A DNA stretch of 64,000 nt from Escherichia coli (GCF_003334765.1 NZ_QOWT01000001.1), one strand, 5' to 3'. Counted from the stretch's first letter, positions 34,076 to 35,332 are shown. Notes: generated by a model not told the origin, from the letters alone. A program made the numbers and translations.

Positions 34076-35332
34076 ATGGGATCTGATGCGAAAAACTTGA
34101 TGAGCGACGGGAACGTGCAAATTGTTAAGACCGGCGAGGTCATTGGCGCGACGCAACTTACTGAAGGCGAGTTGATTGTTGAAGCTGGCGGAAGAGCCGA
34201 AAATACCGTGGTCACGGGGGCTGGCTGGTTGAAAGTGGCAACCGGTGGGATCGCCAAATGCACACAGTACGGTAACAATGGCACGCTATCGGTCAGCGAT
34301 GGTGCCATTGCCACAGATATTGTTCAGTCCGAGGGAGGCGCAATTAGTCTCTCTACGCTCGCTACGGTTAATGGCCGCCATCCCGAAGGTGAATTCAGCG
34401 TTGATAAAGGTTATGCCTGCGGTTTGTTGCTGGAAAATGGCGGTAACCTGCGTGTACTGGAAGGACATCGCGCGGAAAAAATCATTCTCGATCAAGAGGG
34501 CGGCCTGTTGGTTAATGGGACAACCTCAGCGGTCGTGGTAGATGAAGGTGGTGAATTGTTGGTGTATCCAGGTGGGGAAGCCAGCAATTGTGAGATTAAT
34601 CAGGGCGGCGTTTTTATGCTGGCCGGGAAAGCCAGTGATACGTTGCTTGCTGGTGGCACCATGAATAATCTCGGTGGTGAAGACTCTGACACTATTGTTG
34701 AGAATGGATCCATTTATCGTCTGGGGACGGATGGCCTTCAGCTCTACAGTTCCGGTAAGACGCAAAACCTGTCCGTGAATGTGGGTGGTCGGGCTGAAGT
34801 GCATGCCGGTACGCTGGAAAACGCGGTAATACAAGGTGGGACAGTGATCCTGTTGTCACCCACCAGCGCGGACGAAAATTTTGTCGTAGAGGAAGATCGC
34901 GCACCGGTTGAACTGACCGGGAGTGTTGCATTACTGGACGGCGCTTCAATGATTATTGGTTATGGCGCAGAGCTGCAACAATCAACGATTACTGTACAGC
35001 AGGGCGGTGTGTTGATTCTAGACGGCAGTACGGTAAAAGGTGACGGTGTCACTTTCATTGTTGGTAACATCAATCTGAATGGTGGAAAACTGTGGCTGAT
35101 CACTGATGCGGCAACGCATGTGCAACTGAAAGTGAAACGCCTGCGCGGAGAGGGAGCGATTTGCCTGCAAACCAGTGCAAAAGAAATTTCACCTGACTTC
35201 ATCAATGTGAAAGGGGAAGTTACCGGGGATATACACGTTGAGATAACAGATGCCAGTCGGCAAACTCTGTGTAACGCTCTGAAATTACAGCCAGACGAAG
35301 ACGGGATTGGCGCAACGCTCCAGCCTGCGTAA
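34076..35332 (+). CDS. ydhQ: Autotransporter-passenger-like (pertactin/AIDA-type beta-helix) protein without a beta-barrel domain
   Basis: 418-aa ORF rich in G/N/T beta-helix repeats (…GGxxxV…NGG…); no C-terminal translocator domain. Confidence 0.8.
   Translation: MGSDAKNLMSDGNVQIVKTGEVIGATQLTEGELIVEAGGRAENTVVTGAGWLKVATGGIAKCTQYGNNGTLSVSDGAIATDIVQSEGGAISLSTLATVNGRHPEGEFSVDKGYACGLLLENGGNLRVLEGHRAEKIILDQEGGLLVNGTTSAVVVDEGGELLVYPGGEASNCEINQGGVFMLAGKASDTLLAGGTMNNLGGEDSDTIVENGSIYRLGTDGLQLYSSGKTQNLSVNVGGRAEVHAGTLENAVIQGGTVILLSPTSADENFVVEEDRAPVELTGSVALLDGASMIIGYGAELQQSTITVQQGGVLILDGSTVKGDGVTFIVGNINLNGGKLWLITDAATHVQLKVKRLRGEGAICLQTSAKEISPDFINVKGEVTGDIHVEITDASRQTLCNALKLQPDEDGIGATLQPA

What the first reader, a model, noticed from the sequence alone, without database searches (positions are those of the whole stretch)
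34076..35332. ydhQ: autotransporter-passenger-like beta-helix protein with no translocator domain
The 418-aa ORF has pertactin/AIDA-like G/N-rich beta-helix repeats but no obvious signal peptide and no C-terminal beta-barrel of roughly 250-300 aa. It may be a remnant of an ancestral autotransporter adhesin or a cytoplasmic or otherwise-exported beta-helix protein. It sits beside the tRNA-Val pair, a plausible ancient insertion point.
Basis: partly seen in the sequence, partly recalled or inferred. Interest (0 to 1): 0.35.

Follow-up and report, generated by a model that had tools for sequence, protein, structure and literature searches.

The report
Leaderless, barrel-less autotransporter fragment YdhQ
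This is the known E. coli gene ydhQ: an internal piece of an adhesin-type autotransporter "passenger" with no export signal and no membrane barrel, which the genus Escherichia has nevertheless kept intact under selection, so it is a working, probably intracellular, protein of unknown role and not a dead remnant.

Summary
Window 34076-35332 (+) is E. coli ydhQ (418 aa). It has AIDA/Ag43-type beta-helix repeats and about two thirds of the pertactin-like domain. It has no signal peptide, no linker helix and no beta-barrel.

What I add:
1. YdhQ aligns end to end with the inside of a canonical autotransporter passenger. Start and stop both fall within passenger-derived sequence.
2. The gene lies in a ~1.5 kb Escherichia-specific insert between mdtK and the valVW tRNA promoter. 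Salmonella, Enterobacter and Pseudenterobacter have mdtK directly followed by the tRNAs, with no trace of ydhQ.
3. No ortholog is longer. Seven Escherichia lineages all have 418-419 aa.
4. dN/dS is 0.06-0.14 at dS 0.4-1+, and 5420 of 5426 complete E. coli genomes carry the gene. It is not a decaying pseudogene.
5. Published data show the protein is made, stays and folds in the cytosol, and is a direct CsrA target. Three GGA motifs in its 5'UTR are invariant.

Best reading: a domesticated, cytoplasmic beta-solenoid derived from an autotransporter passenger. It fails membership of type Va autotransporters, despite a 2026 paper calling it a "leaderless autotransporter". Its molecular function is still unknown. 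The gene is already catalogued, so interest is modest.

The parts
34076..35332 (+). ydhQ coding sequence, 418 aa
   Evidence: ORF. 100% identical to E. coli ydhQ. NCBIfam PRK09945 940 bits against a cut-off of 830. dN/dS 0.06-0.14 across Escherichia.
34100..34708 (+). AIDA/Ag43-type strand-loop-strand repeat region (residues ~9-211)
   Evidence: Pfam PF16168 hits and TIGR04415 repeat. Aligns to Ag43 passengers 7ko9/7koh/4kh3.
34367..34480 (+). Most constrained block (residues 98-135, VNGRHPEGEFSVDxGYACGLLLENGGNLRVLEGHRAEK)
   Evidence: Almost fully invariant in 7 lineages. Regional pN/pS is 0.042 for codons 101-145.
34856..34915 (+). Conserved acidic loop (residues 261-280, SPTSADExFVVEEDxAPVEL), predicted to leave the solenoid
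   Evidence: Invariant columns. AF2 pLDDT <50 for residues 264-274. pN/pS 0.095.
35060..35284 (+). Partial pertactin-like (autochaperone-type) domain, model positions 1-78 of 121
   Evidence: Pfam PF03212 E 2.5e-5. The collinear homologue P0106 has the full domain (residues 414-538) followed by the PF03797 barrel.
33880..35370 (.). Escherichia-specific insert (~1.5 kb) that carries ydhQ, its leader and its terminator
   Evidence: blastn against Salmonella, Enterobacter and Pseudenterobacter loci. Shared DNA stops at about 33843-33879 on one side and at the mdtK stop (35371-35373) on the other. Outgroups have mdtK then valVW directly.
33999..34081 (+). Conserved 5'UTR block with the Shine-Dalgarno sequence and three invariant GGA motifs (34006-08, 34066-68, 34079-81)
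   Evidence: Alignment of 8 Escherichia lineages. ydhQ is reported as a direct CsrA target (PMC5389547).
35339..35364 (.). Bidirectional intrinsic terminator hairpin shared by ydhQ and the convergent mdtK
   Evidence: The terminator scan finds it on both strands. Sequence.
33795..33823 (-). valVW tRNA operon promoter (TTGCCA-17-TAATAT), ancestral, faces away from ydhQ
   Evidence: Promoter scan. Conserved in outgroups and in all Escherichia lineages.
33611..33768 (-). tRNA-Val(GAC) pair valV/valW (flank)
   Evidence: ARAGORN. Rfam tRNA.
35373..36746 (-). mdtK MATE efflux gene (flank, convergent)
   Evidence: ORF. Annotation. Homologues.

Best explanation
ydhQ encodes a soluble, acidic, all-beta solenoid protein that descends from an internal piece of an AIDA-I/Ag43-type (type Va) autotransporter passenger.

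**Shown**
- The piece runs from a few rungs after the signal peptide to about two thirds of the way through the pertactin-like domain that normally precedes the linker helix and barrel.
- It sits in a ~1.5 kb insert between mdtK and the valVW promoter. That insert is present in all sampled Escherichia lineages and absent in three other enterobacterial genera.
- Since its acquisition it has been kept at a fixed length under purifying selection. It has its own Shine-Dalgarno sequence, a conserved GGA-rich 5'UTR and a terminator.

**Inferred**
- With no signal peptide and no translocator, it cannot use the type V pathway. It stays in the cytoplasm, where the retained C-terminal stable core lets the helix fold on its own.
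- It works there as a rigid binding scaffold. The likely contact sites are the invariant hairpin block (residues 98-135) and the conserved acidic loop (residues 261-280).
- Its expression is held down by CsrA.
- The partner is unknown. EF-Tu and RNA are the only published leads.
For: **Architecture**
- Pfam and NCBIfam.
- Collinear alignment of YdhQ 2-392 with P0106 72-486. P0106 is a canonical autotransporter with AIDA repeats, a full Pertactin domain and the PF03797 barrel.
- The multiple alignment shows homology up to the last residues.
- AF2 solenoid, with Ag43 and TibA as best folds.

**No signal peptide and no possible N-terminal extension**.

**Insertion**
- Outgroup loci, no remnant by tblastn, junction mapping.
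- Synteny in E. albertii, E. marmotae, E. ruysiae-like, E. whittamii and sp. E4742.
- Synteny also in a deeper 71%-identity lineage.

**Selection**
- dN/dS 0.06-0.14 with dS 0.4-1+, against 0.01-0.025 for mdtK and 0.035-0.17 for ydhR.
- Every segment is constrained, 0.04-0.24. For E. coli versus E. albertii, Z=15 for pS>pN. Within E. coli the ratio is 0.09.
- No indels among the six named lineages.
- Present in 5420 of 5426 genomes.

**Expression and location (literature)**
- Without a signal peptide, YdhQ fusions are cytosolic and folded, and agarase is not displayed (PMC13101318).
- The protein is quantified by proteomics (PMC6561319).
- It copurifies with EF-Tu (PMC2672614).
- It is one of 17 unannotated OOPS RNA-binding candidates (bioRxiv 10.1101/2023.07.03.547468).
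- It is a direct CsrA target (PMC5389547), matching three invariant GGA motifs.
Against: **No function demonstrated**
- No biochemical function or partner has been shown.
- EF-Tu is a frequent affinity-purification contaminant.
- OOPS capture of a protein with net charge -27 may be indirect.

**Dispensability**
- Deletion strains are used as neutral controls (bioRxiv 10.1101/2023.03.28.534373).
- An ISEcp1-disrupted allele exists.
- The gene is therefore dispensable in the laboratory.

**Hints of a surface role**
- A secondary source says ydhQ is needed for early adhesion and reports positively selected sites (PMC9110714). I could not check the primary paper (Roux 2005).
- YdhQ appears in a list of extracellular-vesicle proteomes.

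**Gaps in sampling**
- Acidity is inherited from autotransporter passengers generally (median -4.75 per 100 aa), so it is not evidence of adaptation.
- E. fergusonii and Citrobacter loci were not examined.
Confidence: 0.6

Rival explanations
1. YdhQ is a surface or secreted adhesin after all (a 'leaderless autotransporter'). It would reach the cell surface by a non-classical route, or with a barrel supplied in trans, and contribute to early adhesion or biofilm.
For: - PMC13101318 reports higher reporter activity when YdhQ is fused behind an exogenous signal peptide and calls it a functional display anchor.
- PMC9110714 states that ydhQ is needed for early adhesion and finds positively selected sites, as in the surface proteins YfaL and YcgV.
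- YdhQ is listed among COG3468 proteins seen in vesicle proteomes.
- Its homologues Ag43, AIDA-I and TibA are self-associating adhesins.
- CsrA control fits biofilm-related genes.
Against: - There is no signal peptide, no Tat motif and no possible upstream start.
- There is no PF03797 barrel or linker, and no room for one: 40 nt separate the stop from mdtK.
- The native (signal-less) protein is cytosolic and gives no agarase display in the same paper.
- That paper does not address the missing barrel. The summarised assays (agar-plate activity, fluorescence) do not exclude periplasmic leakage.
- Vesicle proteomes routinely contain cytosolic proteins.
Confidence: 0.15
2. ydhQ is a non-functional relic: a gene fragment that happens still to be open.
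For: - It is a fragment of a larger architecture.
- Deletion has no reported growth phenotype and is used as a neutral locus.
- Rare disrupted or shortened alleles exist.
Against: - dN/dS is about 0.1 at near-saturated dS.
- Length is invariant across lineages as divergent as E. albertii and a 71%-identity lineage.
- All segments are constrained.
- Presence in E. coli is near-universal.
- The Shine-Dalgarno sequence and 5'UTR are conserved.
- The protein is detected.
Confidence: 0.04
3. The DNA is conserved for a non-protein reason, for example as a spacer or insulator between mdtK and the strong tRNA promoter, or as an RNA element. The ORF would then be incidental.
For: - The insert supplies the terminator used by mdtK.
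- The region next to the tRNA promoter is highly conserved.
- A FlhDC SELEX peak maps to the ydhQ/valV spacer.
Against: - Conservation is codon-structured. Synonymous sites are nearly saturated (pS about 0.5) while non-synonymous sites are not (pN 0.02-0.11) along the whole ORF.
- No Rfam family matches inside the gene.
Confidence: 0.03

Closest known systems
Self-associating autotransporters of E. coli (Ag43/Flu, AIDA-I, TibA): the passenger (alpha) domain
   Same: - Same AIDA-type strand-loop-strand repeats (PF16168, TIGR04415).
- PDB sequence E-values of 1e-22 to 1e-25 to Ag43 passengers.
- The AF2 model matches the Ag43 and TibA crystal structures best.
   Different: - No signal peptide, no alpha-helical linker and no 12-stranded barrel, and only 78 of 121 positions of the pertactin-like domain.
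- Identity is only about 30% overall.
- The native protein is cytosolic according to PMC13101318.
YcgV/YpjA-like small AIDA-type autotransporters (represented here by P0106, P0174, P0042, P0110)
   Same: - Collinear over almost the whole of YdhQ (residues 2-392 against P0106 72-486).
- This includes the C-terminal half motifs (MxNLGxDxxTxV..YxLG, GxGxF.. block) that Ag43 lacks.
   Different: - These proteins continue for about 30 more residues of the pertactin domain, then the linker and the PF03797 barrel, and they begin with a signal peptide.
- Best identity is 28-38%.
- No relative between 38% and 50% identity exists among 1.84 billion representative proteins, so the donor lineage is not identified.
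Broken autotransporter genes of E. coli K-12 (ydbA, yaiT, yejO, ycgH; from my own knowledge of the K-12 annotation)
   Same: Fragments of AIDA-type autotransporters on the chromosome.
   Different: - Those are annotated pseudogenes, interrupted by IS elements or frameshifts.
- ydhQ is a clean ORF with fixed length across the genus and dN/dS of about 0.1.
- I did not analyse the other genes here.

Membership tests
Type Va (classical) autotransporter | N-terminal Sec signal peptide | tested here: not met
   No hydrophobic h-region: maximum KD(10) is 1.19, against 2.4-2.9 in homologues. An in-frame stop lies two codons upstream of the ATG. SignalP 6.0 is negative in PMC13101318.
Type Va (classical) autotransporter | C-terminal 12-stranded beta-barrel translocator (Pfam PF03797) | tested here: not met
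   No PF03797 hit even at E<=10. The protein ends inside the pertactin-like domain. Only 40 nt separate the stop from the convergent mdtK.
Type Va (classical) autotransporter | Alpha-helical linker threading the barrel | tested here: not met
   The AF2 model has no helix of 4 or more residues. In the alignment with P0106, YdhQ stops about 50-70 residues before the linker.
Type Va (classical) autotransporter | Beta-helical passenger with a C-terminal pertactin-like/autochaperone domain | tested here: inconclusive
   The beta-solenoid is confirmed. PF03212 is matched only over model positions 1-78 of 121. Equating PF03212 with the autochaperone domain rests on my own knowledge; PMC8111173 says only that it lies upstream of the translocator.
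Self-associating autotransporters (Ag43/AIDA-I/TibA) | AIDA-type ~19-residue strand-loop-strand repeats and an Ag43-like fold | tested here: met
   PF16168 E 2e-22, TIGR04415 43 bits against a cut-off of 30. Foldseek Ag43 E 1e-10, TibA E 2e-7.
Self-associating autotransporters (Ag43/AIDA-I/TibA) | Full-length equivalog score (NCBIfam auto_Ag43, auto_AIDA-I) | tested here: not met
   88 and 54 bits against cut-offs of 1200.
Self-associating autotransporters (Ag43/AIDA-I/TibA) | Surface exposure and cell-cell aggregation | not testable with these tools
   Only indirect evidence: the native protein is cytosolic in PMC13101318.
YdhQ family (NCBIfam PRK09945 equivalog) | Score above the curated cut-off over the full length | tested here: met
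   940.6 bits against a cut-off of 830, residues 1-418 on profile positions 1-418.
Pseudogene / decaying gene remnant | Relaxed selection (dN/dS near 1), frameshifts or stops, patchy presence | tested here: not met
   dN/dS 0.06-0.14. All segments are constrained. Length is 418-419 aa in seven lineages. Present in 5420 of 5426 genomes.
tRNA-associated genomic island | Insertion at the 3' end of the tRNA, with an integrase and flanking direct repeats | tested here: not met
   The insert lies between mdtK and the tRNA promoter, on the 5' side. No flanking repeats. No integrase among the called genes. The real island site is the 3' side: SPI-2 in Salmonella, a T6SS cluster in Enterobacter.

The most novel reading that the evidence does not exclude
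An autotransporter passenger fragment has been domesticated as an intracellular protein with a specific role in the translation or RNA sphere. For example, it could be an acidic, rod-shaped beta-helix that binds EF-Tu or acts as a nucleic-acid mimic, in the way pentapeptide-repeat beta-helices mimic DNA. It would be expressed when CsrA repression is lifted. This would be the first autotransporter-derived beta-helix shown to work inside the cell.
Probability: 0.12. Interest if true: 0.6.

Novelty: new variant of a known kind. Interest (0 to 1): 0.35.

Why it matters
The gene is long catalogued: it is a K-12 y-gene with its own NCBIfam model, and it is used as a 'neutral' integration site. The finding therefore discovers no new entity.

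What is worth knowing:
- A protein routinely labelled 'adhesin' or 'autotransporter' fails both defining tests for that family.
- It is still under clear purifying selection across the whole genus.
- That makes it a clean natural example of a secretion-system passenger being reused as a cytosolic protein.
- It cautions against two current practices: calling it a 'leaderless autotransporter' display anchor, and treating ydhQ deletion as phenotypically neutral.

If a cytoplasmic partner were found, it would show a new use for the autotransporter beta-helix fold.

Tried and rejected
1. **Longer ancestral gene.** The genome-contig scan with an ortholog alignment returned only five Escherichia loci, all full-length matches to residues 1-418. 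The scan is not exhaustive, since E. coli itself was not returned. Absence elsewhere therefore rests on the three outgroup loci fetched through MdtK.
2. **Remnants of a barrel or signal peptide in the flanks.** tblastn of YdhQ against the outgroup loci and the whole window found nothing beyond chance.
3. **Mobile-element signature.** There are no flanking direct or inverted repeats of note. GC 0.515 and GC3 0.50 are unremarkable, though the 195-nt leader has GC 0.38.
4. **Phage or plasmid origin.**
   - The single 'phage' hit (CP025887.1) is a misfiled chromosomal fragment, collinear with window 28069-34986 at 98.7%.
   - True plasmid-borne autotransporters are at most 34% identical. The 98-99% 'plasmid' hits are records of 0.42-4.9 Mb (three of them chromosome-sized), not typical plasmids.
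5. **Defence-system role.** PADLOC gave no hit. PHROG hits are to families of unknown function.
6. **Cysteine enrichment as a mark of cytoplasmic adaptation.** YdhQ orthologs have 0.7-1.4% Cys against a median of 0.5% in long homologues, but 11% of those also exceed 1%. This is too weak to use.
7. **RNA element in the region.** Rfam found only the tRNAs and a match outside the gene.
8. **Primary adhesion paper.** Roux et al. 2005 (PMC545717) is not held, so the 'early adhesion' claim is second-hand.
9. **ydhQ promoter.** The sigma-70 consensus scan found none on the + strand upstream.

Full report
**What is there**

Window 34076-35332 (+) is a 418-codon ORF.
- It starts at an ATG, with AAGGA 8 nt upstream. 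An in-frame TAA lies two codons further upstream, so the N-terminus cannot be longer.
- The surrounding 2 kb is 100% identical to E. coli chromosomes in which the gene is annotated ydhQ, 'AIDA repeat-containing protein'.
- The gene order on the + strand is ydhS, ydhR, two tRNA-Val(GAC) genes, ydhQ, mdtK, ribC, cfa.
- 5420 of 5426 complete E. coli genomes carry at least 80% of the query.
- One exception, strain AR_0013, has an ISEcp1 element inserted in the gene.

**Domain content**

- Pfam finds AIDA repeats (PF16168; best E 2e-22) over residues 9-211. It finds the first 78 of 121 positions of the Pertactin family (PF03212, residues 329-403, E 2.5e-5). The Autotransporter beta-domain PF03797 does not appear even at E<=10.
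- NCBIfam places the protein in its own equivalog (PRK09945, 940 bits against a cut-off of 830). It gives only partial, far sub-threshold matches to Ag43 (model positions 249-456 of 948), AIDA-I and the BafA C-terminal model.
- Against PDB sequences, the best matches are Ag43-family passengers (E 1e-22 to 1e-25) and TibA.
- An AlphaFold2 model built on an alignment of orthologs plus collinear autotransporter segments is an uninterrupted beta-solenoid (pLDDT 83, pTM 0.75). It has no helix of four or more residues.
- Foldseek against the PDB returns the Ag43 structures (E about 1e-10) and TibA (E 2e-7) first.
- The N-terminus has no hydrophobic core: the maximum Kyte-Doolittle mean over 10 residues is 1.19, against 2.4-2.9 in homologues that do have signal peptides. 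A 2026 paper reports that SignalP 6.0 predicts none (PMC13101318).
- After the stop codon there are 40 nt, occupied by a hairpin that scores as a terminator on both strands, and then the stop of the convergent mdtK.

The one qualification is that the protein is G-rich (15.3%) and only modestly N-rich (5.5%).

**Where the fragment sits in a full autotransporter**

An exhaustive HMMER scan of 1.84 billion representative proteins found the YdhQ cluster itself. The next relatives are at no more than 38% identity, most of them very long repeat proteins.

One of them, P0106, is a canonical though partially assembled autotransporter. It has AIDA repeats, a complete Pertactin domain (residues 414-538) and PF03797 from residue 585 onward.
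- YdhQ residues 2-392 align collinearly with P0106 72-486 (28% identity, E 2e-26).
- In the multiple alignment, the last YdhQ residues (…KLQPDEDGIGATLQPA) still pair with …TLVTTGGGDAAFTLGN of the full-length proteins.
- YdhQ is therefore passenger-derived from its second residue to its last.
- Compared with a full autotransporter, it lacks about 70 N-terminal residues (signal peptide and first rungs), the last third of the pertactin-like domain, the linker helix and the barrel.

**History of the locus**

I obtained the orthologous interval in other genera by looking up MdtK homologues and fetching their contigs.
- In Salmonella, Enterobacter and Pseudenterobacter, mdtK is followed after 150-410 nt by the same two tRNA-Val genes on the same strand. 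No gene lies between them, and there is no tblastn trace of YdhQ.
- blastn shows that DNA shared with these outgroups ends at window positions about 33843-33879. This side holds the tRNA promoter TTGCCA-17-TAATAT at 33823-33795. On the other side, shared DNA ends at the mdtK stop.
- The stretch of about 33880-35370 is therefore specific to Escherichia. It holds ydhQ, a 195-nt AT-rich leader and the terminator.
- It lies between mdtK and the promoter of the tRNA operon, on the 5' side of the tRNAs.
- The 3' side is the variable one. It holds ydhR/ydhS in E. coli, the SPI-2 secretion genes in Salmonella and a type VI cluster in Enterobacter.
- No flanking repeats or integrase mark the ydhQ insert.

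All Escherichia lineages sampled have the gene in the same place and at the same length. These lineages are E. albertii, E. marmotae, an E. ruysiae-type lineage, E. whittamii, sp. E4742 and a cryptic lineage. An unnamed lineage whose protein is only 71% identical (419 aa) is also flanked by the valVW promoter and by an mdtK 95% identical in protein.

Nothing suggests that a longer gene ever stood here. Either a fragment was inserted as such, or the truncation predates the diversification of the genus.

**Is it alive?**

Nei-Gojobori estimates give the following:

| Gene | dN/dS | dS |
|---|---|---|
| ydhQ | 0.06-0.14 | 0.4 to above 1 |
| mdtK | 0.01-0.025 | 0.11-0.90 |
| ydhR | 0.035-0.17 | 0.15-0.88 |

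- For E. coli against E. albertii, pN is 0.105 and pS is 0.559 (Z=15).
- Every segment of the ORF is constrained, with ratios of 0.04-0.24. The tightest constraint is at codons 101-145 and 261-285.
- Two divergent E. coli strains give a ratio of 0.09.
- There are no indels among the six named lineages.
- The upstream region has a conserved 5'UTR block in which the Shine-Dalgarno sequence and three GGA motifs are invariant in eight lineages.

This is a maintained protein-coding gene and not a decaying relic.

**What the literature adds**

- YdhQ protein is quantified in E. coli proteomes (PMC6561319).
- It copurified with EF-Tu in a global pull-down survey (PMC2672614).
- It was one of 17 unannotated proteins captured as RNA-associated by OOPS (bioRxiv 10.1101/2023.07.03.547468).
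- It is listed among 19 'bona fide direct' CsrA targets (PMC5389547), which fits the invariant GGA motifs.
- A FlhDC SELEX peak maps to the ydhQ/valV spacer (PMC9962212).
- Deletion strains serve as neutral hosts.
- A 2026 surface-display paper calls YdhQ a 'leaderless autotransporter'. Its own data show that, without an added signal peptide, the fusion is cytosolic, folded and gives no external agarase activity. Activity appears only with an exogenous signal peptide (PMC13101318). The paper does not address the absence of a barrel.
- A positive-selection scan groups ydhQ with biofilm adhesins and states that it is needed for early adhesion (PMC9110714). I could not read the primary source.

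**Interpretation**

*Shown here or in the cited papers:*
- passenger ancestry;
- missing export parts;
- genus-specific insertion;
- purifying selection;
- expression and cytosolic location of the native form.

*Inferred:*
- The retained C-terminal part of the helix acts as a folding nucleus that allows cytosolic folding. That this region is the stable core in autotransporters is from my own knowledge of that literature.
- The protein acts as an intracellular binding scaffold.
- The invariant block (residues 98-135) and the conserved acidic loop (residues 261-280), which has low confidence in the model, are the working surfaces.

I give about 0.6 to this package. The structural and evolutionary steps are high. 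The 'cytoplasmic scaffold' function is about 0.4.

*Rivals:*
- An adhesin exported by an unknown route: 0.15.
- A dead remnant: 0.04.
- DNA-level conservation: 0.03.

The remainder is unassigned.

**Comparison and novelty**

YdhQ works structurally like an Ag43/AIDA-type passenger. It fails the two defining features of a type Va autotransporter, the signal peptide and the translocator, so it should not be filed as one. It is a member of its own NCBIfam equivalog.

The gene is already known and its lack of a signal peptide is published. The parts that appear new are:
- the mapping of both truncation points;
- the insertion history;
- the selection evidence that it is a domesticated fragment.

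I rate it a new variant of a known kind, of modest interest (0.35).

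Noticed in passing
window 33487-33649 (+): Full-length match to Rfam RF02194 (HPnc0260, 'bacterial antisense RNA'), 112 bits against a gathering score of 59. It lies antisense to the 5' end of ydhR and the 3' part of the first tRNA-Val. A weaker second match lies over the other tRNA. The family may simply contain tRNA-Val-complementary sequence.
   Followed up: no
L013 8835-15362; L014 8864-15305; L015 9146-10756; L001 4251-5432: The 3' side of the valVW tRNA pair is a variable island site. Salmonella has the SPI-2 type III genes starting about 160 nt after the tRNAs. Enterobacter has HSP20, GlgS and a type VI cluster. Pseudenterobacter has a ydhS-like gene. E. albertii lacks ydhS, so ydhT is followed directly by ydhR.
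   Followed up: partly
L016 3578-6495 (E. coli AR_0013): ydhQ is split by an ISEcp1 insertion into two annotated pseudogene halves. This is one of only six complete E. coli genomes without an essentially full-length copy.
   Followed up: partly
proteins P0003, P0007-P0009, P0012, P0013, P0015: Single-genome YdhQ variants of 370-403 aa cover the whole query at 79-94% identity. They are presumably in-frame losses of helix rungs.
   Followed up: no
window 33999-34081: The ydhQ 5'UTR block is far more conserved than the middle of the leader. Its three GGA motifs (one in the Shine-Dalgarno sequence, one in codons 2-3) are invariant in eight lineages. This matches the published CsrA targeting.
   Followed up: partly
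L020 (CP025887.1, 'Escherichia phage 503046'): A record in the phage collection is collinear with window 28069-34986 at 98.7% identity. It is ordinary E. coli chromosome (ydhT to ydhQ) and not phage DNA.
   Followed up: yes
L003, L018, L019 (Logan runs SRR31578456, SRR26188688, SRR26188687): An unnamed lineage has YdhQ only 71% identical (419 aa) but with conserved synteny and MdtK 95% identical. It is probably a deep Escherichia branch that I could not name.
   Followed up: partly
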